A stretch of DNA of 64,000 nt from Nitrososphaerota archaeon (GCA_016190055.1 JACPRH010000005.1:35233-99232); one strand, 5' to 3'; numbered from the stretch's first letter, positions 18-63,080 are shown. Translations and numbers: made by a program. The notes: a model not told the origin generated them from the letters alone.

Positions 18-27
18 GCTAGCTAGC
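18..27. repeat. GCTAGCTAGC 10-bp palindrome, exact copy 1 of 4
   Basis: Exact string read at 18-27. Intergenic, 63 nt upstream of ORF 90-779. Confidence 0.9.
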
Positions 28-89: not shown

Positions 90-779
90 ATGCTCAGGAA
101 GAACCTTCCCGCCACCGCAACTCTTGCTGCACTACTACTATTCACGGCGCTGCTGCTCCCTGAGTCAGTCTCAGCCATAAGTGGGCCAGGCCCGCCGGAC
201 GTCTATATGGCGGTGACACCGAAGGCGCTGCCTGTAGCGGCAGGATGCCCAGCTACCTTCAACGTTCAGCTAGTCTCTCAAGAAGGCTATCAAGGAGTAA
301 TGAACCTAGATACACTGTCTACGCCAAACGGGGTCGACGCCACCTTCTACCCGAACCCAGTCAGCATCAGAGAATACAGTGAAGCAAATTCAAAGCTCAC
401 AGTAACAGTCTCACCGGACACACCTCAAGGAGTAACAAGCCTATCCCTGAAAGCCGCATCAGCAGACCGAAGAATCAGCCACACCGCAACCGTCACCCTC
501 AACATCGGCCCACCCTGCGCCCAACTACAAAACGGAAAGACGACCACCAGCAGCAGTAACAGCATCATTACCGTAATCTCAGAGGTCACCTTAACTCAGA
601 CGATAACAGCGATTCAAACCAGTACATCAACAATCACTCTGCTAACCACGTTCACAAGCACGACCATTGCATCATCGCTGGAACAAGCTGTAGTACCGTT
701 TACGAGTGTCTGGGCGATTGGAGCCACGATCGTCACCTTGGCGCTGGCTGAAGTCCTGCTTCTGAAAAGAGCAAAATAA
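90..779 (+). CDS. Secreted/surface protein, Thr/Ser-rich, C-terminal membrane anchor (function unknown)
   Basis: N-terminal signal-like hydrophobic stretch (ATATLAALLLFTALLLP). Thr/Ser-rich tract (TTTSSSNS...TSTSTITLLTTFTSTT). C-terminal hydrophobic helix followed by a KRAK tail. Confidence 0.6.
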   Translation: MLRKNLPATATLAALLLFTALLLPESVSAISGPGPPDVYMAVTPKALPVAAGCPATFNVQLVSQEGYQGVMNLDTLSTPNGVDATFYPNPVSIREYSEANSKLTVTVSPDTPQGVTSLSLKAASADRRISHTATVTLNIGPPCAQLQNGKTTTSSSNSIITVISEVTLTQTITAIQTSTSTITLLTTFTSTTIASSLEQAVVPFTSVWAIGATIVTLALAEVLLLKRAK

Positions 780-912
780 CGTAGATAAACTGAATAACTA
801 ACTAATCATTGTAACTTTTTAGAAAGGTTGCAAAGATTTCTTGATGATAGACCGAACTATTATAGCTAGCTTTATACGTTCTTTTGCGGCTCTGAACCGG
901 TGTTTCTCGTAA

Positions 913-2280
913 TTGGGTACTGAGGAGACTGAAGCTAATCCTCACATTCCAAGAATTTTAGTCACCGGTGCCAGTGGGTTTATCGGAGGCCGTTTAGTAG
1001 AAAAACTGTCATCCTCAAGACGATACAAAATCAGATGCCTGACCAGACGCGCCGACACGCTGAAAGAAAGATTCAGCGGAGATGATGTCGAGATAGCGCA
1101 GGGCGATGCTGGAAACTACTACAACTTGGTTGACACATTATCCGGTGTTGACGTAGCCTTCTACCTCATACATTCTATGGAAGGATCCGCATCAGGCTTC
1201 GCGAAGTTCGCAGGGCGAGACAAGTTGTTCGCGGAGAACTTTGCTCGAGCCGCAACCGAGTGCCACGTAAGCAGAATAATCTATCTTGAAGAGCTAGGCA
1301 CGGGTCGAAACGAAGATCTCTCCCACCATATGTGGAGCAGGAGACGAGTCGGCAACATACTTGCGAAATCCACCGCCAAACTCACGGTGTTCAGAGCCTC
1401 CTCAATACTCGGGAAAGGCGGCCACTTATTTGAGATGCTGAGATACCTGGTTGAAAAACTGCCTCTGCTGCTATGTCCGAAGTGGGTTCTGAACAAAACT
1501 CAACCAATATCGGTGGACGACGTGGTAACCTACCTAGCCGAATCAGTAGCCTCGAAGGAGACAGAGGGCAAAATCTTCGACGTAGGCGGCCCAGAAACGC
1601 TCTCCTTCTTTGAAATGATTGAGAGATACGGAAGAATCAAAGGCAAGCAGACCAGAGTCGCTGTAACACCATTCCGCACACCGAGGCTTTCCGCCTACTG
1701 GATTGATCTAGTAACCCCGGTCAAAGCATCAATCGCCCGACCCCTGATCGACGCACTACAACACGATGCGACGGTCAGAGACAACTCAATAAGGCAGCTG
1801 ATCCCCATCAAGCTCAAAAGCTTTGAAGAAACAGTCGAGTCCATAGCAGGCGAGCCTGAAGGCAAAGCAAAGACAACCCAAATCCACCCAGACAAAACAC
1901 TCCTCTACTCCCTATTTGCACTTGAAGTTCTAATGATACCTTACGTAGCCACAACAGCCTTCCTAGGACTATCAAACATACCTTGGATACTCGCAGTCGC
2001 CCTATGGTACCTAGGAGTTGCCTTCGCCATACACTTCATCGACTACGGCGCAAAACTCGGCACACTCTCAGCAGGAATCATAGGCCCACTCTCAATAACA
2101 CTCTGGATAACAAGCGACATAGAGCAGCGGCGACAACTAATCTTAATCACCGGCGCAACAGTGCTCTACAACACCCTCGAAATTGACCTCTCCATACTCG
2201 CCGCAGTCCTAGCTGCAGCATCAGTCTGGGCCCTGCTCAAAACAAAAGTAACACACACTACCACCACCGAACTCCCCTAA
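913..2280 (+). CDS. NAD(P)-binding NmrA/SDR-like protein with C-terminal integral-membrane domain
   Basis: Rossmann motif TGASGFIGG near the N-terminus. The last ~120 aa are strongly hydrophobic (several TM helices). The start in the track is TTG. Confidence 0.75.
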   Translation: MGTEETEANPHIPRILVTGASGFIGGRLVEKLSSSRRYKIRCLTRRADTLKERFSGDDVEIAQGDAGNYYNLVDTLSGVDVAFYLIHSMEGSASGFAKFAGRDKLFAENFARAATECHVSRIIYLEELGTGRNEDLSHHMWSRRRVGNILAKSTAKLTVFRASSILGKGGHLFEMLRYLVEKLPLLLCPKWVLNKTQPISVDDVVTYLAESVASKETEGKIFDVGGPETLSFFEMIERYGRIKGKQTRVAVTPFRTPRLSAYWIDLVTPVKASIARPLIDALQHDATVRDNSIRQLIPIKLKSFEETVESIAGEPEGKAKTTQIHPDKTLLYSLFALEVLMIPYVATTAFLGLSNIPWILAVALWYLGVAFAIHFIDYGAKLGTLSAGIIGPLSITLWITSDIEQRRQLILITGATVLYNTLEIDLSILAAVLAAASVWALLKTKVTHTTTTELP

Positions 2281-2317
2281 CACCTAAACAACCCTCACAT
2301 GTCAGGCCAGCCAGCAA

Positions 2318-2327
2318 GCTAGCTAGC
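2318..2327. repeat. GCTAGCTAGC palindrome, exact copy 2 of 4
   Basis: Exact string, 38 nt after the stop of ORF 913-2280. It runs directly into a GCAA microsatellite. Confidence 0.9.
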
Positions 2328-2333
2328 AAGCAC

Positions 2334-2351
2334 GCAAGCAAGCAAGCAAGC
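2334..2351. repeat. (GCAA)n tetranucleotide microsatellite, ~4.5 units
   Basis: gcaagcaagcaagcaagc read directly, preceded by the imperfect unit gcaagcac. Confidence 0.85.
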
Positions 2352-2514
2352 GAATAGGGGACAGATAGACGTTAATCGCATCTTTAAACAGAAAATCTTC
2401 ACAAAAAATGCTAAACCCGTTCAAGCAAGCAGGCTGTTCTAATCCCTGTACAGGCTGTTCGCATCATTACTCTTAACCTACGCTGACCATATATTAGCTG
2501 CGGAGAATGATAAG

Positions 2515-3615: not shown

Positions 3616-3705
3616 GCTAGACCAAGAAGCGACTGCACGAATAATGGGCTCTATGTGGAGCCCAAACGCTTCTTTCTATTTTTCAGGTACTGTTTTCCCA
3701 CTCAG

Positions 3706-5078: not shown

Positions 5079-6293
5079 TTAGAAGAGTGTGACTTTGCCG
5101 TCTATGATGAGCGGAGTTAAGCTGGTGATGTTGGCTAGTTCTTCGTTGAGTATTGAGGAGATTTCGCCGTTGACGTTGGACAGCGATACACCGGGCTCCA
5201 GCACCACTGCGGAGCTGCAGACCTGCGGCTGATCGATTGGTGAGCCGATTCTGCTGAGCAGCCTCACATAAACCTCTTTAACACCCTTGACCTCTGCGAC
5301 AATCTTGTCCGCGGCTCTCTGAGCCAGCACGTTGTAGATCTTGCCTGTGTGGTTGATCGGGTTCTTTCCTGCGCAGGCCTCCATTGAGTACTGCCGCATT
5401 GAAGTAATCAGCCCGTTGTGCCGGTTGCCTCTGCCGGTGTTACCGTCGTCACCAGCCTCAGCTGAGGTGCCTGTGACGGTGAGGTAGTAGACGCTTAGCT
5501 TGGGGCTGTCACCAGCATTCACCTTAACATCCACGTCCAGGTTAGTTAATCTGGATGCGAGATCTTCAACACTCTGCTGCACATCGTTAACTACGCTGTG
5601 GTAGTGGCTAGCATCAGGCATCAGCCTGCTGATCATTGCACTGGCAACTGTGAGGTTAATCTTCTTCTCACGCCGGTATCCCATCACCTTGATGTCTTCA
5701 CCGACCTCCGGCAGCACCTTCTTCAAATCCGGTGAGTTAAGCATCTGCTCTGTCTTAAGAACAAGGTTCTCAGTAGGAGTCAACGGGGCGAAACCGATGC
5801 CGATTGAAGTGTCGTTGCCCAGCGGGATCTTTGAACCGCCGTCGAAAATCGCTACGAGATCTGTGGATCCCTGCTTCACCTTGTACTCGATGTGAACATC
5901 TTTATCGTCTAGGAAGCGGAGCGTTGATTTGAGGAACTCGCTGATAGCTGATTGAGCCAGCACGCCCACCGGTACCTCGTGAACCCCATCTTTCTCCTTG
6001 ATGAGAGATATGGCGCGACCGGCAACCATGATGAAGATAGGCTCAATCACTTCACCCCCACCGAAAACAGGGTTGGATCTGCCGCCGACAAGAATGCCTT
6101 TATCCACATTGTGGTGGAAGACGCGACCGAATTTGCTGAGATAGTATTTGCAGAGAGCTCTGGAGACCGCTTCAGAGGCTCCGTCGATTAGACTGTCAGG
6201 GTGACCCTTTCCCTTCCGCTCAACAATTTCAACTTCTAGATCCGAGACGGGGGCGCATCTTAGCTGTTCAACATGAATTTCTCGTGCACTCAA
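5079..6293 (-). CDS. mat: Archaeal-type S-adenosylmethionine synthetase
   Basis: EIVERKGKGHPDSLIDGASEAVSRALCKYY...HHNVDKGILVGG matches the archaeal MAT N-terminal signature. The ~400 aa length is typical. TTG start. Confidence 0.95.
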   Translation of the reverse strand: MSAREIHVEQLRCAPVSDLEVEIVERKGKGHPDSLIDGASEAVSRALCKYYLSKFGRVFHHNVDKGILVGGRSNPVFGGGEVIEPIFIMVAGRAISLIKEKDGVHEVPVGVLAQSAISEFLKSTLRFLDDKDVHIEYKVKQGSTDLVAIFDGGSKIPLGNDTSIGIGFAPLTPTENLVLKTEQMLNSPDLKKVLPEVGEDIKVMGYRREKKINLTVASAMISRLMPDASHYHSVVNDVQQSVEDLASRLTNLDVDVKVNAGDSPKLSVYYLTVTGTSAEAGDDGNTGRGNRHNGLITSMRQYSMEACAGKNPINHTGKIYNVLAQRAADKIVAEVKGVKEVYVRLLSRIGSPIDQPQVCSSAVVLEPGVSLSNVNGEISSILNEELANITSLTPLIIDGKVTLF

Positions 6294-6627: not shown

Positions 6628-7425
6628 CTAAGTAAAGTGTAGATCAAGCCTATCCAACCCTTTAGAGCTATTCTTAGAGAAGACCGCTGCACATTGAGCC
6701 ACATCAACCGTACGGTAATCAACAGACAATGATTTAGCGAGTCGCTTCGCAGCAGGGCGAATGTTGGGCGCTAGGAGGATGCCTCGCAGATCCGGGGAGG
6801 TTTCTCTCATCTGTGAGATGTACCGGTAAAGCTGCTTAACTGCATCAGTGTCAGCGGCCACCCGCTTAACCTCCACCACAGTATATCTTCCTGAACGGTC
6901 TAACCCTGTAAGATCAGCCTTTCCACCACCCAACCCTTTCTGCTCCGAACTGATCCTGAAGCCCGGTTCAATCAAATCAGGATTAGCTCTTAACACACTG
7001 TAGAGATCCTGCTCAGAGATCAGCATGTCAAGCGAAGCATCATCCTTCAGCAAAACTGAGGAGACCAGAGCAACCTCACGGCAAATCACCTCAAGGGTTT
7101 CACGCGGCTTACGCCGGTCAGCCCGGATCACCAGTTCACCCTCCCGCTGAGAAAAGGTGATGCAGCACCCCGGCGGCTGCCAGTTAGCAGCTTCGAAACC
7201 GGTTCTCCTGTGAATCAGCACTGAACCATCCGGTTTCAGCAGAACAACCCGTTCACCCCAACCCATCTTCGAAGAGGAACGGCCATGGTAATCAACCCGG
7301 CAGTCAGCAACCAGTACCGTGAAGCAGCCCCGCGAACAAGCATCAGAAACAATAGACTCAACTTCCTGAAACGTTGGATCGACCTTGACCTGCGGATGAT
7401 TCATACTAACTGACTCCTCAACCAA
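6628..7425 (-). CDS. nucS: NucS/EndoMS mismatch-specific endonuclease
   Basis: Two-domain pattern. The N-terminal half has CRVDYHGRSSS...VLLKPDGSVLIH...ANWQPPG. The C-terminal RecB-like nuclease has GGGKADLTGLDRSGRYTVVEVKR...QLYRY. The true start may be the internal ATG at 7404. Confidence 0.9.
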   Translation of the reverse strand: MVEESVSMNHPQVKVDPTFQEVESIVSDACSRGCFTVLVADCRVDYHGRSSSKMGWGERVVLLKPDGSVLIHRRTGFEAANWQPPGCCITFSQREGELVIRADRRKPRETLEVICREVALVSSVLLKDDASLDMLISEQDLYSVLRANPDLIEPGFRISSEQKGLGGGKADLTGLDRSGRYTVVEVKRVAADTDAVKQLYRYISQMRETSPDLRGILLAPNIRPAAKRLAKSLSVDYRTVDVAQCAAVFSKNSSKGLDRLDLHFT

Positions 7426-7537: not shown

Positions 7538-8500
7538 TTGGCCAGCGCACTCATTGAGGATATAGAGTGGATACCGAAGGAGACAGCGAAAGCACTCAGG
7601 GACGCTGGAGTAATATCTGTTCTAGATTTAGCATTAGCACCAAAAGATATCCTCCTGAAGCACGGCATCACTACTGAATCCGCGGCACATATCACTGAGA
7701 AAGCAGTCGGCGAAATCAAGCATCTACAACGGGGAAGCAGCCTACTCGGCAAAGGAGAACAGCGCAGAAAAATATCCACAGGATCCAGCTCACTTGATAA
7801 TCTGCTAGGAGGAGGCGTCTCATCCGGCAGAGTAACCGAGGTTTACGGTGAAAGCGGCGCAGGTAAGACCCAGCTCTGCTTCCAGCTTTGCGTAAACCTG
7901 CTGGCTACGGAACAGAAGAAGAATAAGGAGGAGGAGGAAGAGAGGAAAGGTGACATCGTGTTTATTGATACGGCTGGAACCTTTAGGCCTGAGCGGCTCG
8001 CCCAGATGGCTGCTGACCGCATCAGCGAGGATGAGCTACTCAAACACATCTTCCTCGTGAGTGCTCGTAGCTCAGAGGAGCAGGCCCGAGCTGTTCAGAG
8101 TAGCCAAGAGTCAACGTCCCTGAACACCCAGATGCTTATTATCGACACGTTGACAGACAACTTCGTCTATGAGTTTCAAGGCGAGGATCACATTACCTCT
8201 CGGCAGATATCTTTGGCGCATCACCTCCACGACTTGGCGGAGATGGCGCTGGACAAGGACATACCTGTTGTCGTAACCAACACTGTTAGGACGAGGTTGC
8301 TGGACACAGGCGAGACCCGGATTATCGAAACTGGAGGGAACACTGTTGCGCAGGGTGTTCATCTTCGCCTGAGGCTGGAGCGGCTTAGGGGAAAAGGTCA
8401 AGGGGGGGTAGCTCGTCTAGATGATACCGATATCAAAACGGTACCTAGAGTACGATTTAAGATAGAGAAAAACGGGATCATGGACTGGGAGGAAAAGTGA
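7538..8500 (+). CDS. radA: RadA-like recombinase (N-terminal HhH domain + RecA core), divergent
   Basis: The N-terminal HhH-like segment (IPKETAKALRDAGVISVLDLALAPKDILLKHGITTESAAHITEKA) and Walker A GESGAGKTQ fit RadA, as does IDTAGTFRPERL. The core C-terminal half is divergent and carries an acidic insert (KKNKEEEEERKG). TTG start. Confidence 0.7.
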   Translation: MASALIEDIEWIPKETAKALRDAGVISVLDLALAPKDILLKHGITTESAAHITEKAVGEIKHLQRGSSLLGKGEQRRKISTGSSSLDNLLGGGVSSGRVTEVYGESGAGKTQLCFQLCVNLLATEQKKNKEEEEERKGDIVFIDTAGTFRPERLAQMAADRISEDELLKHIFLVSARSSEEQARAVQSSQESTSLNTQMLIIDTLTDNFVYEFQGEDHITSRQISLAHHLHDLAEMALDKDIPVVVTNTVRTRLLDTGETRIIETGGNTVAQGVHLRLRLERLRGKGQGGVARLDDTDIKTVPRVRFKIEKNGIMDWEEK

Positions 8501-11154: not shown

Positions 11155-11748
11155 ATGGCCGAAGTCAATCCCGCTGCACGTGAACGCGTCACGGTGAGAG
11201 AGGTCATGAACAGCCCAGTCATCACCGGAACTGAAGACGAAACCATACAGGCCATCTCAACCAGAATGATCGACTACCAGATCGGCAGCATCATAATCAT
11301 GAAGGGGTCGGAGCCAATAGGCATCGTAACAGACGGAAATATCATAGATCAGGTCGTCGCGAAGAATTTGAAGCCCAGCAGCGTCTTGGCGAAGGACGTA
11401 ATGTCCACCCCACTTCTAACAATCAAAGACGACAGGAATGTATCTGAGGCAGCGAACCTGATGAGGAAAAAGGGAGTCAAAAGACTCGGCGTAATGGACG
11501 ACGGAAGACTCATGGGAATAATATCCATCTCAGACATCATCTCAGTGATGCCTGAGCTCTACGCTATTGCTGCTGAAAAGGCCCGTATGATGGCGAACCA
11601 AGCCACCACAGGACGAACAACAAGTCTAGCAGGCGTCTGCGATAACTGCGGCCAATGGTCAGAGGATCTAGCCCGAACAGACGGACGATACCTATGCTAC
11701 GAATGCCGCACAGAGGTCGTCGCAGAAACCCCGGAAAGAGAAATCTAG
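11155..11748 (+). CDS. CBS-pair domain protein with C-terminal zinc ribbon
   Basis: Two CBS repeats (VREVMNSPVITGTEDETI...; AKDVMSTPLLTIKDDRNV...GVKRLGVMDDGRLMGIISISDI). C-terminal CDNCG...CYEC. ATG at 11155 is preceded by GGAGTGAGG. The track starts at GTG 11143. Confidence 0.8.
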   Translation: MAEVNPAARERVTVREVMNSPVITGTEDETIQAISTRMIDYQIGSIIIMKGSEPIGIVTDGNIIDQVVAKNLKPSSVLAKDVMSTPLLTIKDDRNVSEAANLMRKKGVKRLGVMDDGRLMGIISISDIISVMPELYAIAAEKARMMANQATTGRTTSLAGVCDNCGQWSEDLARTDGRYLCYECRTEVVAETPEREI

Positions 11749-11757
11749 CTAGCTAGC
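11745..11757. repeat. (CTAG)3-C: GCTAGCTAGC palindrome, exact copy 3 of 4
   Basis: ctagctagctagc read directly. The first TAG (11746-11748) is the stop codon of the CBS gene. Confidence 0.9.
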
Positions 11758-11875
11758 CACCGACCGACAGACCTACCTACTGGCCTAACTCGCCGTCGAG
11801 GCGTTAAGAAAGCTTGACGTACCTCCATTCTTATCTATCACCATATTATGCGAATTTGCAGTTGACAGTTAATCG

Positions 11876-20449: not shown

Positions 20450-20519
20450 ACTGTGTGCGAAGCAATCTCGCTATATCTGTTTATCCTTCTTTTTCCTTCT
20501 TCTTTCTTTGTTTGTTTGT

Positions 20520-20699
20520 TTAGACTGCTCGGCTGTTCTGGGGACGGTAAATCGCGTTAACCGTGATTTCGAAGGAGCAGGCGTTATGTGTTGAGCAGTA
20601 ATCTTGGCATTCCTGTGCGGTCTCCGGATTAGAGTAGCCGAAGCCGCATTCATCACATAGGTATACTGTGTGATCTCCGATTATTCGCTGAGAGACCAT
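20520..20699 (-). CDS. Small (59 aa) zinc-ribbon-like protein, below the ORF-track size cutoff
   Basis: Hand translation gives MVSQRIIGDHTVYLCDECGFGYSNPETAQECQDYCSTHNACSFEITVNAIYRPQNSRAV*. ATG at 20699-20697, TAA at 20522-20520. The CxxC...CxxxC...C pattern looks protein-like, unlike the overlapping 61-aa track ORF. Confidence 0.5.
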   Translation of the reverse strand: MVSQRIIGDHTVYLCDECGFGYSNPETAQECQDYCSTHNACSFEITVNAIYRPQNSRAV

Positions 20700-21684: not shown

Positions 21685-22875
21685 TTACTCTACGTGGACC
21701 CTGAATTGGTCGATGTCTTCGCCGACGACGCTGAGGAGTTCACGGCATGCGCGCTCCACATCCTTCGACTGGGTGATGTAGCGGCCAACTATCAGTATGT
21801 CCGCGCCTTTTTCGATAGCTTCCTTCGCGGTCTCAGCGTTAATGCCTCCTGCGACGGCGACGTAGAGCTTCTTGTCAGCCAGCTCAGTCTTGACCTTCTG
21901 GATGATCTGCCACCTTGTCTTTCCACCCTCCTCTTCATCGATGCCTCGGTGCAGGATCACGATGTCAGGAATATCCTTCAAACCCTTCAGTACAGCCAGC
22001 GGATCCGCGACATCCATCATATCTATAGCGGAGTAGATGCCGAGCCGCCTCGCCTCATAGACGAACTTCTCAAGGGTCGCCTTGGACGCTAAACCTGATG
22101 CGACTACTGCGTCAGCAGTCTCGTTAAAGGATATGTCAACCTCTACCTGACCAACATCCAGCGTCTTCAAGTCAGCTATGATGAAGACATCCTGGTTCGC
22201 CTCGCGGAGATCACGGATGACTTTGAGCCCATACTTCTTTATGAGCGGTGTACCGGCTTCAAGCAGAATACGGTCGCTCTTTGGAAGCTGAGATATCACC
22301 TTCTTAGCTGATTCGATATCAGGGTTGTCTAGCGCAATCTGTAGGTAAGGCCGCATCCATAGACGTGGAACTCTGAAGCCCATAATCGGGTGTTTCGCCC
22401 TATCCTTATCATACATTATCTTTTCGAGGCTCGGATAGTTCTGGAGCGCCCGTTTCAACGCTAGCTTCGTGGCGCCGTAATTGTAGTGATAGATTTTCCG
22501 GTAGTCGGTAGCATCAGGGTGAATGAAGACGCTGATAACTATGACAAGATTCTCAATCTGATCCTGCGGCACAACACCTTCTTCAACAGCATCAGCAACT
22601 GCCTTAGCGACAGCCGCCTGAGCTGGGCCGAATATCTTGGAGGCCTGCTCCATATCCTTGACAGTAACCTTAGGAGTAATCAGAGTGAAGGGTTTAGGCG
22701 GCAAGTTAGGCCGTATAACAGCTAGGAGAGGAGTATGTCCGGCGGAGAGCTGTGTAAAACCGTTCGCAAACGCCTGTCCAACAGGCCCCTCTTTGTCACC
22801 GATCATAAGATCGATGTGCGCGACCTCGTTACCCTCGCCTATGAGAGCTTCACCAATGAAGAACAAACTGATCAC
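21685..22875 (-). CDS. fae-hps: Bifunctional formaldehyde-activating enzyme / 3-hexulose-6-phosphate synthase (Fae-Hps)
   Basis: The N-terminal Fae block is GEALIGEGNEVAHIDLMIG...LLAVIRPNLPPKP...FGPAQAAVAKAVADAV. The C-terminal OMPDC-family HPS block is YLQIALD...LLEAGTPLIKKYG...IIADLKTLD...GADILIVGR. GTG start. Confidence 0.9.
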   Translation of the reverse strand: MISLFFIGEALIGEGNEVAHIDLMIGDKEGPVGQAFANGFTQLSAGHTPLLAVIRPNLPPKPFTLITPKVTVKDMEQASKIFGPAQAAVAKAVADAVEEGVVPQDQIENLVIVISVFIHPDATDYRKIYHYNYGATKLALKRALQNYPSLEKIMYDKDRAKHPIMGFRVPRLWMRPYLQIALDNPDIESAKKVISQLPKSDRILLEAGTPLIKKYGLKVIRDLREANQDVFIIADLKTLDVGQVEVDISFNETADAVVASGLASKATLEKFVYEARRLGIYSAIDMMDVADPLAVLKGLKDIPDIVILHRGIDEEEGGKTRWQIIQKVKTELADKKLYVAVAGGINAETAKEAIEKGADILIVGRYITQSKDVERACRELLSVVGEDIDQFRVHVE

Positions 22876-25788: not shown

Positions 25789-25819
25789 ACAGGTAAAAAA
25801 AGCCAGCCAAGTTGCTTGC

Positions 25820-26704
25820 TTACTTAGGCATCGGATGACGCGAGAGTCGTTTACGTAGATTCATCAGCGCATCGATATTAGAGTGAATCGCCTTCCTGTG
25901 CTCGAAGAGGAGCTCACGTATAACCCAGCCCTCCTCAAGCAGCTCAAGAGAATCGTCAATTCGGTGAAGCGCAACCTTTAGCGCGACAATGCTCTTAGCC
26001 AAAGCTCGGTCGGTAATCCGCTGCTGCTTCTCTAGATCCGAGTAGGAGTATGGGATGCTGTCTGTAAAGGCGTCGAACTCAGGTAGATTTCCCCGATGAA
26101 TCATCTTAACCATGTCGCGGACGTCGCTTCGTGAGAGACTCTCGCCGACAGCCCTCATCCCGAGCTCAATCTGCTGGTTTTCATCGTCAAGTGAGAGAAG
26201 CTCCTCCCCAACACTCGGACTGATGTTTCGCCTCGCAATCTCAGCCCGAATCTCCTTCGGCAGTGAAAGGAGCCTCAAACGTTTGCTCACATAGACTTGG
26301 CTCTTACCTATCTGCCTCGCTAGCTCGCTTACCCCGCCCCAACCATAATCCTCCACATAACGTCTAAAGGCCTCAGCCTCCTCAACCGGGTTCAGCATGT
26401 TCCGCTGAACATTCTCGACCAGCGAGACCTCGAAAGCCTCCTTATCATCAAGCTCCACTATATGACAGGGAATCTTAATCCAGCCTAGCCTGCGACACGC
26501 CTCGAAACGCCTATTACCCGCAACAACCTCATAACCCTCCTCAACCGGGCGGACCACGATAGGCTGAAGAAGCCCAACCTTCGAGATTGACGCCATCAAC
26601 TCATCTAGGTCGCCGAGATCGCTTCTGAGACTCCGCTGAGCAGGATGAGTCTTCCGCATCTTCACCTCATCGAGAAAACCTGCGAGAGACGGGCCGTCCA
26701 TCAT
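25820..26704 (-). CDS. ParB/Spo0J-like protein (ParB N-terminal domain + HTH)
   Basis: GLLQPIVVRP...GYEVVAGNRRFEACRRLGW (GxRR box). HTH: ARQIGKSQVYVSKRLRLLSLP. The ~120 aa C-terminal region is of unknown type. Confidence 0.85.
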   Translation of the reverse strand: MMDGPSLAGFLDEVKMRKTHPAQRSLRSDLGDLDELMASISKVGLLQPIVVRPVEEGYEVVAGNRRFEACRRLGWIKIPCHIVELDDKEAFEVSLVENVQRNMLNPVEEAEAFRRYVEDYGWGGVSELARQIGKSQVYVSKRLRLLSLPKEIRAEIARRNISPSVGEELLSLDDENQQIELGMRAVGESLSRSDVRDMVKMIHRGNLPEFDAFTDSIPYSYSDLEKQQRITDRALAKSIVALKVALHRIDDSLELLEEGWVIRELLFEHRKAIHSNIDALMNLRKRLSRHPMPK

Positions 26705-28482: not shown

Positions 28483-28599
28483 CCATCTAGCTGCGTAACA
28501 TAAAAGCAGTTTTTCACAGAATCCTGAATAAAGAAAGAATAGGAAGAAAAGATCAGAGCGGACGCTAAGGGTTAACTAGATAAAAAAATATGCGCCGGC

Positions 28600-32623: not shown

Positions 32624-32639
32624 CTAGCCGGCCGGCTGG
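32624..32639. repeat. CTAGCCGGCCGGCTGG near-palindrome between convergent genes. Short relative of the 42.9/63.0/63.4 kb repeat core.
   Basis: Read directly. Contains the 12-bp perfect palindrome AGCCGGCCGGCT. Shares the ctagccgg / cggctgg / ttagg blocks with copy C (63397-63430). Confidence 0.5.
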
Positions 32640-35745: not shown

Positions 35746-37605
35746 ATGACTCGACTTCTAGCGCCTTTGATAATTCTCCTAATCATATCATCCAGTATCA
35801 CGTTACTAATCGCGCCTCAAACAGCAGTAGGCCAGCAGCAGCAACAGCAACCACCGACCGCTGGCGACTGGGTTGCCACAGGTTACGATTACAAACACAC
35901 CGGGTTTAACCCTCAGACGGTGATTAACCGGGACAATGTGAAGGAGTTGGAGTTCAAATGGATTTACCAGCTCCCCTCGAACCCATACCGAAGTATTCTA
36001 CAACCGTCGCTTGGTCTTGAGACGAATCCGCTGGTCGTGAATGGAATGGTTTACTTCGCCGCATCCTACAGCAAGGTGTTTGCAGTCAACGCTTTGACTG
36101 GAAATCTAGTGTGGAGCCACGAGGTGAACGTAACCAAGGCACTTGAGAAGCCGTACATCGGTAACTTTGGAATACAACACGCGATTACATACAAGAGTGG
36201 CCTCATCTATCAGCTGGCAATAGACTGCACCCTTTACGGTCTCGACGCGGCGAACGGTCAAGTGAGGCTGCAGATCGATGACATCTGTAAAGATATACCG
36301 GGGAACAGAGGATTGTACTTCGGAGAAGAGGCGCCTACAATATATGAGAAGGACGGGCGAAGGATAGCTGTCGTACCTGTTGCAGCTGGACTCTTCTATG
36401 CACGAGGCTTCGTCGCAGCCTACGACCTCGAAACTAAGGAACTGCTGTGGCGATGGTTTGTTATTCCTCCTGGTGTAGAAGGGCCTAAGGATAACTGGGA
36501 AGGATACCAAGATGTAAGCAAAGGCAACATCAAGCCTTACCCCGGGGACTGGGGAGACAGCAGCGAAATCTGGGGAGGCTCAGCTTGGGTCTCAAGCTCC
36601 ATCGACGAGGACACCGGTCTCGTCTACACATCCACCGGTTACCCCGGCATCGGCTTGACACTTGCAGGTAATGGAGACGCCTCAAGGAGACCGGGGCCGA
36701 ACCTGTACACCAACTCGATAGTGGCGCTCGACGTGCTGACAGGCAAGATGAAGTGGTATTATCAGGTGACACCGCACGATTTAGTCCAGCACGGCTTCGG
36801 ATGGAACACGATACTCGCCAAAGTCACTATTGACGGTCAGGAGAAGAAGGTCATAGTCACCGGCAGCAAGAACGGGTACGTCTACGAGCTCGATGCGGTT
36901 ACAGGTGAGCCGGTCATACAGCCTGTGAAGGTAGGAGTTCACCTCAACGACTACAACACGAACCTAGGTAACGATGCAGACATGACGATGAACCAGCAAC
37001 CAGGAGTCACCTGCCCCGGAGGAAACGGCGGAATCGAAGCACCGGTAGCCGTCGCGCACAACACCATTTTTGCCGCAGCCCAGAACCGATGCTTTGATTG
37101 GCGACCGGTTCCGAACGCGTACAAAGGAACCGCAGTATGGGTCGCCGGCCCAGTGATGGATAGACCCCAAAACTCAACACTCTACGCCATCGACGCCACA
37201 TCAGGCAACATCAAGTGGCAGTTCAACATGCCTAACCCATACCAAGGAGCTGGCGTTATCGTCAGCGGAGGAGTCGTCTTTGCGCAGGACAGAATCGGAA
37301 CACTATACATGTTAGATGAGCAGAACGGGCAGCTTCTCAGGAGTATCTACTTCGGCGGGCTCGGCGCCGCAGGAGTATCCATCGGCCAGAATCCAAGAGG
37401 AGAAACAATGCTTTTCGTACCCTCCGGCGGAGGAGACATAATTGTACCCACGCCCGGCACACTCACAGCCTTCGCGTTACGTGAAGGATCCTCGTCCAGC
37501 GGAGGAGGAACATTCACAAACGAGGTGGTCTACATTGCGATAGCGGTTGCAATCGTAATGGGAGGAATCGCCTTGGTAAGCCTGAGAAGAAAATCAGTAA
37601 AGTAG
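35746..37605 (+). CDS. PQQ-like beta-propeller (quinoprotein dehydrogenase-like) exoprotein with N- and C-terminal membrane segments
   Basis: The N-terminal block GDWVATGYDYKHTGFNPQTVINRDNVKELEFKWIY resembles the quinoprotein dehydrogenase start (W..G.d....yspL.qIn..NV..L..aW). Repeated propeller blades follow (VNGMVYFAAS, GLIYQLAIDCTLYGLDAANG, GKMKWYY, GYVYELDAVTGE, LYAIDATSGNIKW, GTLYMLDEQNGQ). C-terminal TM plus RRKSVK tail. Confidence 0.7.
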   Translation: MTRLLAPLIILLIISSSITLLIAPQTAVGQQQQQQPPTAGDWVATGYDYKHTGFNPQTVINRDNVKELEFKWIYQLPSNPYRSILQPSLGLETNPLVVNGMVYFAASYSKVFAVNALTGNLVWSHEVNVTKALEKPYIGNFGIQHAITYKSGLIYQLAIDCTLYGLDAANGQVRLQIDDICKDIPGNRGLYFGEEAPTIYEKDGRRIAVVPVAAGLFYARGFVAAYDLETKELLWRWFVIPPGVEGPKDNWEGYQDVSKGNIKPYPGDWGDSSEIWGGSAWVSSSIDEDTGLVYTSTGYPGIGLTLAGNGDASRRPGPNLYTNSIVALDVLTGKMKWYYQVTPHDLVQHGFGWNTILAKVTIDGQEKKVIVTGSKNGYVYELDAVTGEPVIQPVKVGVHLNDYNTNLGNDADMTMNQQPGVTCPGGNGGIEAPVAVAHNTIFAAAQNRCFDWRPVPNAYKGTAVWVAGPVMDRPQNSTLYAIDATSGNIKWQFNMPNPYQGAGVIVSGGVVFAQDRIGTLYMLDEQNGQLLRSIYFGGLGAAGVSIGQNPRGETMLFVPSGGGDIIVPTPGTLTAFALREGSSSSGGGTFTNEVVYIAIAVAIVMGGIALVSLRRKSVK

Positions 37606-37623
37606 AGTAAAGTTTGTTGAGAA

Positions 37624-37639
37624 GCCGCTGAAAAGCGGC
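37624..37639. terminator. Short GC hairpin (GCCGCT-gaaa-AGCGGC) between convergent genes
   Basis: Read directly. Lies between the PQQ-like stop (37605) and the MFS stop (37708). Confidence 0.35.
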
Positions 37640-37707
37640 GAGGAGCAGGCGGCTGAGAACAGCAGTCGACCTGCAACCCTTTCTCTCACTCGGTTGTTCC
37701 TTTCTTT

Positions 37708-54517: not shown

Positions 54518-54574
54518 AAAAAGAAGAGGAGAAGAAGGAAGGCGGCCAGAAAACACCGCCTCTAAATTCTCTAT

Positions 54575-58256: not shown

Positions 58257-59510
58257 ATGCGCAAGTCTAGAGTAAGCAGGCTGATGACGGTGCCTGATAA
58301 AGAGTCGGGAAGCTTGGCCGTCGTCCCGAACGATCGAATACTGATACAGCAGGAGGCCACATGGTACTACGGGGGATATGCCCCGTTTAACCGGGTTGCT
58401 CTGGGTCACTTGATTGTGACTGAAAGGAGGCTGCTCTTCTTTGAGCAGAAGCCCGTGGCGCTCAGCCAGTTTTTTTCAGACACCTCGATTGAAACCTTTA
58501 GCTTAGCATTCACGCTGCTTCTGGATAAGTTGAGGAGCGCGCAGGTTGAGTTGCGCATCAGAGGTAAGGGCGGTCGACCCAATTGGCGTGACGCTGAACT
58601 GTACAGGAAAATCATGCTTGGACAGCAGCAAGTCAACCAGCCAGCTGGGTTTCTGGGGCGGAAAAATGAGTATCAGGTGCTCATAATATCTGTTAACAAC
58701 GAAGGTGGTGGAGTCGATAGCCTAGTCTTTGAAGTAGAGAGTCCAGTTGAATGGATGCGTGTGCTGAGGAAAGAGGCGGAGGGGGAGGAGGAACCGCTTA
58801 CTGCTCCTGAGGAGGCGCCTAAGGAAGAGAGTGTCGCTGTAGAGGCGGTGGAGGGCAGGGTTAAGATCGGCATCGCTATGCTAGATGAGATGTTGAACGG
58901 GGGCATACCTGAAGGATACAGCGTTGTGCTCGCTTCACCGTCCTGTGATGAGAAAGATGATATGCTTCAACAGTTCCTCGGTAAGGCGGTTGATGACGGA
59001 AAGATTGCTATCTATGTCTGCGTCGACCCGTTGAAGGTGCAGTCCACTAGTGAAGCTCATCCTAAGAATCTCCATGTGTTAGCTTGCAGCTCACGGACAG
59101 AGGTGTTACCGCAGGGGGCGCTCAATGTGAGAAGCATAAAGGGGTTGGAGAACCTCAGCGATCTCAACATTGGGCTTATGGATATCATAGACAGAGTTGT
59201 CGGTGGAGACAATGGAAAGGGCGGAGTAATTTGCATCGATGTTCTCTCCGAGATTCTGCTGCAGCATAAGATTCTAAACACGCGACGGTGGCTCATGGAT
59301 ATTCTTCCTAGGCTTCGATACAAAGGATACACAGTCCTCGCCACATTCAACCTGTACATGCATAGCTCAGAGGAGACACAGGCGGTGGTCGATGTCTTCG
59401 ACGGAGAGATCAGCCTCTACGACAAGGAAGGCTCAGATGTTAAGTGGATACAGGTCAAGAAGATGTTCAACATAGAATACTCTAGAAAAGCAATACCTTT
59501 CGACAGGTAA
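58257..59510 (+). CDS. Two-domain protein: novel ~165-aa N-terminal (PH/GRAM-like?) domain + acidic linker + KaiC/RecA-like domain with degenerate P-loop
   Basis: The C-terminal half aligns with the KaiC-like protein at 60412. GIAMLDEMLNGGIPEGYSVVLASPSCDEKDDMLQQFL corresponds to GIKGVDEILANKGIPRSYVVFVIGSPGSGKTTLALQFL. The Walker A GxxGxGKT is replaced by ASPSCDEKD. Confidence 0.6.
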   Translation: MRKSRVSRLMTVPDKESGSLAVVPNDRILIQQEATWYYGGYAPFNRVALGHLIVTERRLLFFEQKPVALSQFFSDTSIETFSLAFTLLLDKLRSAQVELRIRGKGGRPNWRDAELYRKIMLGQQQVNQPAGFLGRKNEYQVLIISVNNEGGGVDSLVFEVESPVEWMRVLRKEAEGEEEPLTAPEEAPKEESVAVEAVEGRVKIGIAMLDEMLNGGIPEGYSVVLASPSCDEKDDMLQQFLGKAVDDGKIAIYVCVDPLKVQSTSEAHPKNLHVLACSSRTEVLPQGALNVRSIKGLENLSDLNIGLMDIIDRVVGGDNGKGGVICIDVLSEILLQHKILNTRRWLMDILPRLRYKGYTVLATFNLYMHSSEETQAVVDVFDGEISLYDKEGSDVKWIQVKKMFNIEYSRKAIPFDR

Positions 59511-59596
59511 ACCTCTGCTCAGCTAACATCCCCACCATCGTGTTAGTATTGCTAAGGAGAGTACGCCGAAGTAACTTTCTCTGCCCGTGCATATTG

Positions 59597-59603
59597 TTTA
59601 AAT
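59597..59603 (+). promoter_or_regulatory. TATA-box-like TTTAAAT about 30 nt upstream of ATG 59630
   Basis: Read directly. The spacing fits a leaderless archaeal promoter and supports 59630 as the true start rather than the track start at 59540. Confidence 0.4.
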
Positions 59604-59629
59604 CCTGTGCGCATTTAATCCGTCAAGCG

Positions 59630-60411: not shown

Positions 60412-61167
60412 ATGCCAATGAGCGAGAGGGAAGAGTTCGCACGCACCGGAATTAAGGGTGTAGATGAGATTTTAGCGAACAAAGGGATACCGCGAAGCTA
60501 CGTCGTATTTGTAATTGGAAGCCCCGGCAGTGGAAAGACTACGTTGGCGCTACAGTTCCTCTACAACGGCGTCAAAGAGTACGGTGAGAATGGCGTCTAT
60601 GTTTCGCTTGACGAGGAACCTGACGCGTTGGTGAAAAACGCCAAGGCGGTTGGTCTCGATCTCTCCAAGATGATTAAGGATGATAAGTTAGCAATTATTG
60701 ATGCATCGCCTATCAGATTCCTTCCCGGAGAAGTAAAGCTGGGCGATATCTCGGTTGGGAAACGAGAGTTTGCGCTCATCTCTCTGATTGACGCTATTAA
60801 GAAGAATGTGGAGAGGCTTGGTGCAAAAAGACTGGTAGTTGACCCGCTCGCGACCCTTATACTTCAGTACCCTGATGCGGCGGAGCGTCGAACAGCGGTT
60901 CTGGATCTTATGCAGGCAATAGCTTCAACAGGCTGCACGACTCTTCTGATATCTGAGTTAACGACAAGCTCGCTGTACCGGAAGTATCAGTTTGAAGAGT
61001 TCTTAGCTCAAGGTGTCCTTATCCTGAGAAAGATACTGAGGCCCGGTGGAATGCTGAGGATATTCAGCGTAGAGAAGATGCGCGGGGTTGACCATGATAC
61101 GCAGCCTCACCCATATAAGATCGGGGACGGCGGCATAGAGGTCTATCCTTCAGAGATAGCTCTGTGA
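60412..61167 (+). CDS. Single-domain KaiC/RadB-like RecA-superfamily ATPase
   Basis: Walker A GSPGSGKTT, Walker B RLVVDPL, and typical blocks TGIKGVDEIL..GIP and FSVEKMRG..H. Confidence 0.85.
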   Translation: MPMSEREEFARTGIKGVDEILANKGIPRSYVVFVIGSPGSGKTTLALQFLYNGVKEYGENGVYVSLDEEPDALVKNAKAVGLDLSKMIKDDKLAIIDASPIRFLPGEVKLGDISVGKREFALISLIDAIKKNVERLGAKRLVVDPLATLILQYPDAAERRTAVLDLMQAIASTGCTTLLISELTTSSLYRKYQFEEFLAQGVLILRKILRPGGMLRIFSVEKMRGVDHDTQPHPYKIGDGGIEVYPSEIAL

Positions 61168-61739: not shown

Positions 61740-62348
61740 TTGCCTAACGTTACTACTCGGTTGGTTGTTGGTATTTCAGGTGCTTCAGGCGCCATCTACG
61801 GGGTAAGGCTGCTTGAAGTGTTGAAGAGTAAGGGTGTTGAGACGCATCTCATAATCACTCCGTGGGGTGAAGAGATGATCAGGGTTGAGACAGATATGTC
61901 GCCTGACGATGTGAAGAACCTCGCAACACAGGTATATGATGATAAAGATATGGCGGCTCGCGTCTCAAGCGGCTCGTTCAAGTTCGATGGAATGGTAGTT
62001 ATCCCCTGCAGCATGAAGACTATCTCCGCGATTGCTAACGGATACGCCTCGACTCTCCTCGTTCGCGCAGCAGATGTCACGATGAAGGAGGGGCGGAAGC
62101 TGATTGTTGTTCCCCGGGAAACACCGGTAAACCAAGTGCATCTGAAGAATATGCTTCAGTTAGCCCAAATGGGAGTGACGGTGCTACCGGCGATGCCCGG
62201 CTTCTACCACCGACCCAAATCAATGGGCGACCTCGTCGATCATGTTGTAGGTAAGGTTCTGGATCAGTTCAACATAGAGCATAATCTCTACAAACGTTGG
62301 CAACCTATGAGAGACCAGCAACATCTTGCGGATCAGAAGCACTACTAA
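61740..62348 (+). CDS. ubiX: UbiX/Pad1-family flavin prenyltransferase
   Basis: LVVGISGASGAIYGVRLLEVL, VVIPCSMKTISAIANG and LIVVPRETP blocks. TTG start 3 nt after the flavodoxin-like stop. Confidence 0.9.
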   Translation: MPNVTTRLVVGISGASGAIYGVRLLEVLKSKGVETHLIITPWGEEMIRVETDMSPDDVKNLATQVYDDKDMAARVSSGSFKFDGMVVIPCSMKTISAIANGYASTLLVRAADVTMKEGRKLIVVPRETPVNQVHLKNMLQLAQMGVTVLPAMPGFYHRPKSMGDLVDHVVGKVLDQFNIEHNLYKRWQPMRDQQHLADQKHY

Positions 62349-62360
62349 CTAGCTCAAGAA

Positions 62361-62370
62361 GCTAGCTAGC
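62361..62370. repeat. GCTAGCTAGC palindrome, exact copy 4 of 4
   Basis: Exact string between the convergent stops of ubiX (62346-62348) and the nitroreductase (62373-62375). Confidence 0.9.
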
Positions 62371-63030: not shown

Positions 63031-63080
63031 GAAAAGGAAGTCTTCGATTGCTAGCACCGTGTAGGAATTATGCTATTATG

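What the first reader, a model, noticed from the sequence alone, without database searches (positions are those of the whole stretch)
11745..11757. Four exact intergenic copies of the palindrome GCTAGCTAGC, all hugging gene 3' ends: a bidirectional all-frame stop / terminator-like motif
GCTAGCTAGC occurs at 18-27, 2318-2327, 11748-11757 (extended to CTAGCTAGCTAGC from 11745) and 62361-62370. Under uniform base composition, about 0.06 occurrences of any given 10-mer are expected in 64 kb, so four copies is a strong excess. None lies inside a supported CDS. At 11745 the first TAG is the stop codon of the CBS gene. At 62361 the motif sits in the 24-nt gap between the convergent stops of ubiX and the nitroreductase. 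At 2318 it follows a stop by 38 nt and runs into a (GCAA)n repeat. Because the unit is 4 nt long and palindromic, (CTAG)3 places TAG in all three frames on both strands. Candidate roles:

- A fail-safe stop for read-through or frameshifted ribosomes.
- A protein-binding or termination site.
- A recombination or restriction-related site (two overlapping GCTAGC sites).
Basis: seen in the sequence. Interest (0 to 1): 0.6.

Follow-up and report, generated by a model that had tools for sequence, protein, structure and literature searches.

The report
Fast-changing four-base repeats after genes
The four GCTAGCTAGC copies are real and far more than chance gives, but they are small, fast-changing four-base tandem repeats (microsatellites) in the unconstrained DNA just after genes of an uncultured soil-type archaeon, not a conserved stop or terminator signal.

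Summary
GCTAGCTAGC occurs four times against 0.09 expected. All four copies lie outside genes, and independent assemblies carry the same sequence.

The functional reading does not hold. The 10-mer is 2.5 copies of a CTAG unit. It belongs to a wider excess of short period-4 tandem repeats in intergenic DNA of this Nitrososphaerales-like lineage: 13 runs against 1.6 expected. Other units include GCAA, GCCA, ACCG, ACCT, TAAC and GCCG.

At each of the four sites I compared relatives that are 87-99.8% identical in DNA.
- The flanks are conserved, but the repeat is not.
- Copy number goes 1, 3.25 and 4.75 at the CBS stop codon.
- A 99.8% identical strain has GCAA units where the window has GCTA.
- The motif shrinks or is missing in relatives at the ubiX/nitroreductase junction.
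- Long intergenic indels all fall in these arrays, mostly in multiples of 4.

Stop-bearing units are not enriched. No T-run or hairpin accompanies three of the four copies. CTAG is not depleted, and the window encodes no methyltransferase, restriction enzyme or transposase.

The bias toward gene 3' ends is real: there are no runs in divergent promoter spacers. Low constraint explains that bias.

Only the convergent-gene copy forms a stable hairpin, a 12-bp stem.

Verdict: ordinary microsatellite behaviour with a CTAG bias. Interest is low.

The parts
18..27 (.). GCTAGCTAGC copy 1: (CTAG)x2.5, mid-spacer, 6 nt after a T5 run and 63 nt before the start at position 90
   Evidence: The upstream context comes from L098. 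The copy is kept in L099 but reads TTAGATAGTA in L100.
2306..2353 (+). Degenerate tetranucleotide array of 12 GCNA units: GCCA GCCA GCAA GCTA GCTA GCAA GCAC GCAA x4 GCGA. It contains copy 2 at 2318-2327 and starts 25 nt after the stop of 913..2280.
   Evidence: (TRF: period 4, 10.8 copies). A strain 99.8% identical (L098) has pure (GCAA)>=7 here and its contig ends inside the array. L099 and L100 have shorter, different arrays.
11745..11784 (+). In-phase tetranucleotide array of 10 units starting at the CBS stop codon: CTAG x3, CCAC, CGAC x2, AGAC, CTAC x2, TGGC. It contains copy 3.
   Evidence: The orthologous spacer has 4.75 CTAG units in L007/L008 and one in L009, with alignment gaps of 16 and 28 nt. 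The flanks are conserved.
62344..62370 (-). Hairpin in the 24-nt convergent spacer between ubiX and the nitroreductase gene. It contains copy 4 (62361-62370). On the - strand it forms a 12-bp stem, GCUAGCUAGCUU/GAGCUAGUUAGU, which overlaps the ubiX stop codon.
   Evidence: -19.6 kcal/mol, z -2.57; z -5.06. L095 is identical. L096 has TAGCTAGC and an 18-nt spacer. L097 has a 10-nt spacer with no CTAG.
795..805 (+). TAACTAACTAA, a period-4 run 15 nt after the stop of 90..779
   Evidence: It is identical in L099 and L100.
2422..2431 (+). CAAGCAAGCA, a period-4 run in the same spacer as the 2306 array
25812..25821 (.). TTGCTTGCTT (the GCAA unit on the other strand), in the 31-nt convergent spacer between the ABC ATPase and ParB-like genes
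32627..32636 (.). GCCGGCCGGC, a self-complementary period-4 run in a convergent spacer. It is part of the 12-nt palindrome AGCCGGCCGGCT.
20500..20521 (.). T-rich period-4 runs TTCTTTCTTT and TTTGTTTGTTTGTTT (low-complexity)
28530..28539 (.). AAAGAAAGAA, a period-4 run in a tandem spacer

Best explanation
The four GCTAGCTAGC copies are independent short tetranucleotide microsatellites, each 2.5-3.25 copies of a CTAG unit. They are not copies of one functional element.

In this Nitrososphaerales-like lineage, the DNA between a stop codon and the next promoter, or between two convergent stops, gains 4-nt tandem duplications. These grow, shrink and mutate unit by unit. Slipped-strand mispairing at replication or repair is the most likely mechanism.

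Inside genes, a 4-nt change shifts the reading frame and is removed by selection. In promoter-bearing divergent spacers, such changes would disturb the spacing of signals. The arrays therefore survive only in the least constrained 3' spacer DNA, and this produces the apparent 'hugging' of gene ends.

The CTAG unit is over-used. Two causes are likely. First, CTAGC-type seeds are supplied at or beside TAG stop codons. Second, self-complementary units can fold back, which stabilises slipped intermediates.

Shown here:
- the excess and its restriction to intergenic 3' spacers
- copy-number change in whole units between relatives
- conserved flanks around variable arrays

Inferred, not shown:
- slippage as the mechanism
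- the reason for the CTAG bias
- the absence of any fitness effect
For: 1. There is a general excess, not specific to one motif.
- Of 18 exact period-4 runs of at least 10 nt, 15 lie in the 12% of the window that is intergenic.
- Within intergenic DNA there are 13 runs against 1.60 +/- 1.28 in shuffles (maximum 6). Density is 1.70 per kb, against 0.053 per kb in coding DNA.
- 79 loci from diverse other organisms show no such excess: 34 observed against 28.6 expected. They contain no GCTAGCTAGC at all.

2. Copy number varies in whole units while the flanks stay conserved.
- Site 3: L009 has TAG+CCAC ATAC, the window has (CTAG)3.25 plus 7 more units, and L007/L008 have (CTAG)4.75. The alignment gaps are 16 and 28 nt.
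- Site 2: L098 is 99.8% identical over 2,342 nt. All 5 of its mismatches fall in 2301-2335, it has GCAA where the window has GCTA/GCAC, and its contig ends inside a pure (GCAA) run. L099 and L100 carry shorter, different arrays.
- Site 4: there are 2.5 copies in the window and L095, TAGCTAGC in L096 (18-nt spacer), and none in L097 (10-nt spacer).
- Site 1: the copy is kept in L099 but replaced by TTAGATAGTA in L100.

3. All six intergenic indels of 8 nt or more between the window and its relatives fall in the two large arrays. Their lengths are 8, 11, 12, 12, 16 and 23 nt.

4. The four copies share no flanking similarity beyond 14 nt, so they are not a dispersed element.

5. Position follows constraint. 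There are 0 runs in 1,993 nt of divergent spacers and 3 in 451 nt of convergent spacers. Seven of 11 runs in tandem spacers lie in the stop-proximal 26%.

6. Stop-bearing units are not enriched (6/15 against 0.39 expected). Self-complementary units are enriched (5/15 against 0.107).

7. Background knowledge:
- Non-triplet STRs concentrate in intergenic DNA across taxa (PMC12699852).
- The window encodes NucS/EndoMS (6628..7425). In mycobacteria, the NucS pathway does not repair indels (PMC7015689). Whether this genome lacks MutS/MutL could not be checked.
Against: - Even given the general period-4 excess, four runs of one unit class is unusual. The probability that any class reaches 4 is 0.04 for 14 draws and 0.006 for 9 loci. 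The AGCT class ranks only 24th of 33 in intergenic tetramer frequency. Some CTAG-specific bias therefore exists, and its cause is not shown.
- AGCTAGC is the most intergenic-enriched 7-mer (14 of 19), and single GCTAGC sites also sit just after two other stops (41656, 63050).
- Site 1 is conserved in a relative that is 92% identical.
- Site 4 forms a stable hairpin, so a local function there is not excluded.
- No within-population length polymorphism was seen at site 3: five assemblies are identical.
- Only about 64 kb of this genome and about 45 kb of close relatives could be examined.
Confidence: 0.75

Rival explanations
1. The motif is a selected 3'-end element. Self-complementary repeats that carry stop codons, such as (CTAG)n, would be kept because they build a hairpin readable from both strands. 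That hairpin would act as a bidirectional terminator or 3'-end stabiliser between genes. The repeats would also place TAG in several frames on both strands and so catch frameshifted or read-through ribosomes.
For: - The 3' bias is real.
- Site 4 forms a 12-bp hairpin on the nitroreductase-sense strand (z -2.57 and -5.06). L096 keeps a 7-bp version despite sequence change.
- Other convergent spacers in the window also hold strong hairpins: 3616-3705, 37606-37707 and 54518-54574.
- Self-complementary units are enriched among the runs (5/15 against 0.107).
- L100 keeps TAG-N-TAG spacing at site 1 (TTAGATAGTA).
- TAACTAACTAA, which puts TAA in three frames, is conserved in three relatives.
Against: - Three of the four copies show no structure better than shuffles and no terminator-like site.
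- Known archaeal terminators are U-tracts acting with aCPSF1 (PMC8716108 and PMC7515710, listed). The motif contains no T run.
- The motif is lost or resized in close relatives while the flanks stay put.
- Stop-bearing units are not enriched.
- Most period-4 runs (GCAA, GCCA, ACCG) carry no stop and are not self-complementary.
- The 10-mer covers only two frames.
Confidence: 0.12
2. The duplications come from staggered double-strand cuts followed by fill-in and rejoining, not from slippage. A nuclease cutting G^CTAGC leaves 4-nt 5' overhangs, and filling these in and religating yields exactly GCTAGCTAGC. The same logic turns G^CCGGC into GCCGGCCGGC. A variant of this idea is that the repeats are footprints of a transposon that duplicates a CTAG target and later excises.
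For: - GCTAGCTAGC and GCCGGCCGGC (32627) are exactly the fill-in products of 6-bp palindromes. This rests on sequence logic and general knowledge of restriction-site fill-in.
- Self-complementary units are enriched.
- ATGCATGCAT in relatives has the same form.
Against: - Most runs have non-palindromic units (GCAA, GCCA, ACCG, ACCT, TAAC), which a site-specific cut cannot explain.
- Copy number differs by several units between relatives and arrays are degenerate, as expected from slippage.
- CTAG and GCTAGC are not avoided.
- The window encodes no restriction enzyme, methyltransferase or transposase.
- Single intergenic GCTAGC sites persist unduplicated at 865, 41656 and 63050.
Confidence: 0.07
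3. The motif is a palindromic operator or binding site for a DNA-binding protein, that is, a regulon or nucleoid-associated site.
For: - It is a perfect 10-bp palindrome, strongly over-represented and strictly intergenic.
- Site 1 lies upstream of a gene and is conserved in L099.
Against: - Two copies lie where no promoter is expected, at a stop codon and between convergent stops.
- Neighbouring genes are functionally unrelated.
- The motif is not conserved in orthologous spacers, and its length changes by 4 nt, which would destroy a dyad site's geometry.
- There are none in divergent promoter spacers.
Confidence: 0.04
4. The four copies are a chance coincidence or an assembly artefact.
For: None beyond the small sample of 64 kb.
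Against: - 4 observed against 0.09 expected, and 0 of 100 shuffles reached 4.
- The sequence is identical in independent assemblies.
- The 10-mer is absent from about 600 kb of control loci.
Confidence: 0.01

Closest known systems
Short tandem repeats / microsatellites (tetranucleotide class) evolving by slipped-strand mispairing
   Same: - Units are head to tail, and the runs are at least 10 bp long.
- There is an excess over composition-matched expectation.
- Copy number changes in whole units between close relatives.
- Arrays are degenerate, with point-mutated units.
- Non-triplet units are excluded from coding DNA (general pattern in PMC12699852).
   Different: - The runs are very short, 2.5-4.75 copies, or up to 12 degenerate units.
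- Archaeal genomes on average show no STR excess (PMC12699852). A local 8-fold excess confined to 3' spacers of one Nitrososphaerales-like lineage, with a CTAG/GCNA unit bias, is therefore a lineage peculiarity.
Phase-variation (contingency) tetranucleotide repeats of Haemophilus and Neisseria
   Same: The unit is a tetranucleotide, copy number is unstable, and the host relies on limited repair of slippage loops.
   Different: Contingency repeats are long tracts placed inside reading frames or promoter spacers, so that unit changes switch a gene on or off. The arrays here are short and lie after stop codons of housekeeping genes, where unit changes have no obvious read-out.
Archaeal transcription terminators (U-tract recognised with aCPSF1/FttA)
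   Same: They occupy the same place, just downstream of stop codons. Two copies have a T5 run within 10 nt.
   Different: The motif itself has no T run. Two copies have no T run nearby. The motif is not conserved. Transcript 3' ends could not be tested (PMC8716108).
Engineered three-frame stop linkers (CTAGCTAGCTAG-type cassettes) and filled-in NheI sites
   Same: The sequence is identical, and (CTAG)3 does give TAG in all frames on both strands.
   Different: Those are laboratory constructs. Here the sequence is native to a metagenomic archaeal chromosome found in several independent environmental assemblies. Only one copy reaches three units.

Membership tests
Microsatellite / short tandem repeat | Head-to-tail repetition of a 1-9 nt unit over at least 10 bp | tested here: met
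   All four copies are exact period-4 runs of 10-13 nt. The 2306-2353 array has 12 units, and TRF reports period 4 with 10.8 copies.
Microsatellite / short tandem repeat | Copy number differs between related genomes by whole units while the flanks align | tested here: met
   Site 3 has 1, 3.25 and 4.75 CTAG units, with gaps of 16 and 28 nt. Sites 2 and 4 also differ between relatives.
Microsatellite / short tandem repeat | Non-triplet units are depleted in coding sequence relative to non-coding | tested here: met
   Period-4 runs occur at 1.70 per kb in intergenic DNA and 0.053 per kb in coding DNA. Period-3 runs occur at about the same density in both.
Microsatellite / short tandem repeat | Length polymorphism within a population | tested here: inconclusive
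   Site 3 is identical in five assemblies of one strain. Site 2 differs in unit content in a 99.8% identical contig that breaks inside the array. No read-level data were available.
Archaeal U-tract terminator | A run of about 5 or more T at the termination point | tested here: not met
   The motif contains no T run. A T5 lies 6 nt upstream at site 1 and 8 nt downstream at site 4. Sites 2 and 3 have none.
Archaeal U-tract terminator | Coincidence with mapped transcript 3' ends | not testable with these tools
   No transcriptome data exist for this uncultured organism.
Bacterial-type intrinsic terminator | A G+C-rich hairpin followed by a T run | tested here: not met
   The scan found no terminator-like site at any of the four copies. 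Fold z-scores are +1.35, -0.27 and +0.81 at sites 1-3.
Fail-safe / all-frame stop signal | Stop codons in all three frames on both strands at each copy | tested here: not met
   Only 11745-11757 has three TAGs per strand. The 10-mer has two (sequence). Stop-bearing units are not enriched among period-4 runs: 6/15 against 0.39.
Dispersed repeat element (REP/MITE-like) | Copies share sequence beyond the core, with element-like ends | tested here: not met
   In 150-nt flanks no similarity extends beyond 10-14 nt.
Restriction-modification target | The site is avoided or specially distributed, and a cognate methyltransferase or nuclease is encoded | tested here: inconclusive
   CTAG observed/expected is 0.83 (composition) and 0.90 (Markov), so there is no avoidance. 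None of the 60 window proteins scanned against Pfam is a methyltransferase, restriction enzyme or transposase. The rest of the genome is not available.
Phase-variation contingency locus | The repeat lies inside an ORF or between promoter elements, so that unit changes switch expression | tested here: not met
   All arrays lie after stop codons or between convergent stops. There are none in divergent promoter spacers.

The most novel reading that the evidence does not exclude
In this Nitrososphaerales-like lineage, self-complementary tetranucleotide repeats such as (CTAG)n and (CCGG)n could be positively maintained at gene 3' ends. They would be cheap, evolvable, strand-symmetric elements that give a hairpin and multi-frame stops readable from both directions, with copy number tuning read-through between neighbouring genes. 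Alternatively, they could be the scars of a CTAG-specific staggered-cut and fill-in process. Either reading would make the CTAG bias more than a mutational accident.
Probability: 0.1. Interest if true: 0.5.

Novelty: new member of a known kind. Interest (0 to 1): 0.2.

Why it matters
The main value is as a caution. A strikingly over-represented palindrome that seems to mark gene ends turns out to be a mutational by-product, once orthologous spacers are compared.

It also records a small lineage peculiarity. Archaeal genomes are usually not enriched in short tandem repeats. This uncultured Nitrososphaerales-like group shows an eight-fold local excess of tetranucleotide repeats in 3' spacers.
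- These arrays are the main indel hotspots between strains, so they could serve as strain markers.
- They break short-read assemblies.
- They hint at weak correction of slippage loops in a NucS-type repair background.

If the CTAG bias proved to be selected, it would bear on how 3' ends are defined in ammonia-oxidiser relatives. The present evidence does not favour that.

Tried and rejected
- **Source genome.** A search of one representative genome per species with the CBS protein returned only an unrelated proteobacterial hit at 29% identity. No genome-wide count was therefore possible.
- **UbiX search of metagenome contigs.** It gave 80 loci, but only one close relative, and that one is cut before the site (L024). 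The loci were reused as a composition control.
- **RNA genes.** The Rfam and tRNA scans of the window found nothing.
- **Terminators and folding.** Terminator scans found nothing at the copies. Folding showed nothing at sites 1-3.
- **Dispersed element.** The flanks are unrelated.
- **Restriction-modification or IS origin.** No such genes are in the window, and CTAG is not depleted.
- **Pervasive period-4 signal.** The lag-4 autocorrelation of intergenic DNA is only 0.277 against 0.254 expected, and it drops to 0.265 once the exact runs are masked. The signal is therefore local hotspots, not a property of all spacers.
- **Enrichment of stop-bearing units.** Rejected.
- **Literature.** I found no description of GCTAGCTAGC or (CTAG)n as a natural termination or stop element. 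The only hits were engineered stop cassettes.

Full report
**1. The observation**

GCTAGCTAGC occurs at 18, 2318, 11748 and 62361. That is four matches against 0.09 expected from dinucleotide-preserving shuffles, and no shuffle reached four. The 11748 copy extends to CTAGCTAGCTAGC from 11745. A further CTAGCTAG, 8 nt only, lies inside a gene at 51463.

A simple gene map covers 64 ORFs and 88% of the window.
- The TAG at 11746-11748 is the stop of a CBS-domain gene.
- The 62361 copy lies in a 24-nt gap between the convergent stops of a UbiX-type flavoprotein gene and a nitroreductase gene.
- The 2318 copy follows the stop of an NmrA-like gene by 38 nt and runs into (GCAA)n.

The sequence is not an artefact. 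Five independent assemblies of the same strain are identical through the 11745 region, and other assemblies carry sites 1 and 4.

Two details need correcting.
- In the longer contig L098, copy 1 lies mid-spacer. It is 82 nt after the upstream stop, 6 nt after a T5 run, and 63 nt before the next start. It does not hug a 3' end.
- Only the 13-nt version gives TAG in three frames per strand. The 10-mer gives two.

**2. The organism**

The window holds archaeal housekeeping genes: NFACT, Mut7-C, AMMECR1, GatB/GatA, AspRS, thermosome, RadA, NucS, SAM synthetase and a Fae-Hps fusion. Where homologues of the CBS protein carry a source name, that name is Nitrososphaerales or Nitrososphaerota. The collection of one genome per species holds no close relative. 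The lineage is known only from metagenomes.

**3. What the motif belongs to**

Listing every exact period-4 run of at least 10 nt gives 18 runs. Fifteen of them lie in the 12% of the window that is intergenic.
- GCTA-type: 4 runs.
- GCAA-type: 3 runs.
- One each of GCCA, TAAC, ACCG, ACCT and GCCG, plus three runs that are T- or A-rich.

Within intergenic DNA there are 13 runs against 1.60 +/- 1.28 in shuffles (maximum 6). Density is 1.70 per kb, against 0.053 per kb in coding DNA. Period-3 runs are equally dense in both compartments.

The copies at 2318 and 11745 are embedded in longer in-phase arrays.
- 2306-2353 is twelve GCNA units.
- 11745-11784 is ten units: CTAG x3, CCAC, CGAC x2, AGAC, CTAC x2, TGGC.

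Seventy-nine loci from diverse other organisms show no excess (34 runs against 28.6 expected) and contain no GCTAGCTAGC. The lag-4 autocorrelation of intergenic DNA is only slightly raised, and it falls once the exact runs are masked. The signal is a set of local hotspots.

**4. Comparison with relatives at all four sites**

This is the decisive test. The relatives are 87-99.8% identical in DNA.

- *Site 3 (CBS to Mut7-C spacer).* After the stop codon, L009 has TAG CCAC ATAC, the window has ten units, and L007/L008 have (CTAG)4.75 CTAC CCAC. All then continue into the same conserved block, CCTAACTCGCCGTCGAGGCG. The alignment gaps are 16 and 28 nt.
- *Site 2.* L098 is 99.8% identical over 2,342 nt. 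All five of its mismatches fall in 2301-2335, it has GCAA where the window has GCTA GCTA and GCAC, and its contig stops inside a pure (GCAA) run. L099 and L100 have shorter, different arrays between conserved flanks.
- *Site 4.* L095 (99%) is identical. L096 (88%) has TAGCTAGC in an 18-nt spacer. L097 (87%) has a 10-nt spacer with no CTAG.
- *Site 1.* L099 (92%) keeps the 10-mer. L100 has TTAGATAGTA at the same place.

All six intergenic indels of 8 nt or more between the window and its relatives fall in the two large arrays. Their lengths are 8, 11, 12, 12, 16 and 23 nt.

The motif is therefore the fastest-changing part of each spacer, and it changes mostly in whole units. That is how a microsatellite behaves. 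A motif under purifying selection would not behave this way.

**5. Position**

Period-4 runs are absent from divergent spacers (1,993 nt). There are three in convergent spacers (451 nt). Seven of the 11 runs in tandem spacers lie in the stop-proximal 26%.

The simplest reading is constraint.
- A 4-nt change inside a gene shifts the frame.
- A 4-nt change inside a promoter region alters signal spacing.
- Between a stop codon and the next promoter, nothing is disturbed.

**6. Tests of the functional readings**

- *Terminator.* No terminator-like site is found at any copy. Folds at sites 1-3 are no better than shuffles (z = +1.35, -0.27, +0.81). Known archaeal terminators are U-tracts working with aCPSF1 (PMC8716108 and PMC7515710, listed), and the motif has no T run.
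- *Site 4 is the exception.* On the nitroreductase-sense strand, the duplicated CTAG pairs with the end of ubiX in a 12-bp stem (-19.6 kcal/mol, z -2.57; z -5.06 on the spacer alone). L096 keeps a 7-bp version. Several other convergent spacers in the window also hold strong hairpins. A local role for that hairpin is possible, but it depends on the partner sequence, not on the 10-mer as such.
- *All-frame stop.* Stop-bearing units are not enriched among the runs (6 of 15 against 0.39 expected).
- *Restriction-modification or mobile element.* CTAG is not depleted (0.83 and 0.90). GCTAGC occurs singly in genes and spacers. None of the 60 window proteins scanned against Pfam is a methyltransferase, restriction enzyme or transposase. 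The flanks of the four copies are unrelated.
- *Operator.* Two copies sit where no promoter is expected. The neighbouring genes are unrelated in function. The site length changes by 4 nt between relatives.

**7. What remains unexplained**

Given about 14 period-4 runs, four of one unit class is itself unlikely. The probability that any class reaches four is 0.04, or 0.006 if the nine loci are counted. AGCTAGC is also the most intergenic-enriched 7-mer. Self-complementary units are over-represented (5 of 15 against 0.107). Relatives add ATGCATGCAT.

I infer a mutational bias, but have not shown one. There are two likely contributors.
- CTAGC seeds arise at TAG stop codons. The stop is part of the repeat at site 3, and in L096 at site 4.
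- Self-complementary units can fold back and stabilise slipped intermediates.

A staggered-cut and fill-in origin would give exactly GCTAGCTAGC from G^CTAGC, and GCCGGCCGGC from G^CCGGC. It cannot explain the non-palindromic units or the multi-unit changes.

The window encodes NucS. In mycobacteria the NucS pathway does not repair indels (PMC7015689). That would fit poor correction of slippage loops, but I could not check whether MutS/MutL are absent from the genome.

**8. Comparison with what is known, and verdict**

These are short tandem repeats of the tetranucleotide class. They meet the defining features that I could test: repetition, excess over expectation, unit-wise copy-number change, and exclusion from coding DNA.

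They are not contingency loci, U-tract terminators, bacterial-type terminators or dispersed elements. At least one defining feature of each was tested and not met.

A survey of 117,861 genomes reports that archaeal genomes on average show no STR excess, and that non-triplet STRs favour intergenic DNA (PMC12699852). The local eight-fold excess here is a lineage peculiarity within a known kind.

Interest is low.

Noticed in passing
window 3616-3705, 37606-37707, 54518-54574: Three convergent-gene spacers hold strong hairpins: GGGCTC..GAGCCC inside a longer stem, GCCGCTgaaaAGCGGC, and GGCGG..CCGCC. The last has z about -4 to -5 on both strands and a long T/C-rich run on the - strand. Hairpins at convergent 3' ends may be a feature of this archaeon.
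   Followed up: partly
window 795-805; L099:8299-8309; L100:1814-1824: TAACTAACTAA lies 15 nt after the stop of the 229-aa gene and puts TAA in three frames. It is identical in three relatives, unlike the variable CTAG arrays.
   Followed up: partly
L098:1498-1507; L099:6996-7005 and 5763-5773; L100:547-556: A perfect 10-bp palindrome, ATGCATGCAT, lies about 45 nt upstream of a small gene just left of the window. It is conserved with its flanks in three relatives and is a candidate operator. L099 carries a second copy, TGCATGCATGC.
   Followed up: no
window 11785-11804: A conserved block, CCTAACTCGCCGTCGAGGCG, directly follows the variable array. It contains the small inverted repeat CTCG-CCGT-CGAG and is identical in relatives 89-93% identical in DNA. 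It may be a real 3' or regulatory signal.
   Followed up: no
window 2301-2335 vs L098:4297-4331: All five mismatches between the window and a 99.8% identical contig over 2,342 nt cluster in 35 nt at and beside the GCNA array, and that contig ends inside the array. This points to either a local mutation hotspot or co-existing strain alleles that break assembly.
   Followed up: partly
window 6628-7425: The window encodes the NucS/EndoMS mismatch endonuclease, next to RadA (7538-8500). It is relevant to indel repair capacity, but the MutS/MutL status of the genome is unknown.
   Followed up: partly
window 21685-22875; 35746-37605; 58257-61167: The window also encodes a Fae-Hps fusion (formaldehyde-activating enzyme plus an OMPdecase/HUMPS-family domain), a PQQ-dependent dehydrogenase, and KaiC-like ATPases at 58257..59510 and 60412..61167.
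   Followed up: no
window 41656-41661, 63050-63055, 865-870: Single GCTAGC sites also sit in spacers: 2 nt and 26 nt after stops, and 43 nt before a start. GTGGCTAGC or its complement recurs five times in the window (5604, 11752, 41653, 46034, 62365), three times in spacers and twice in genes.
   Followed up: no
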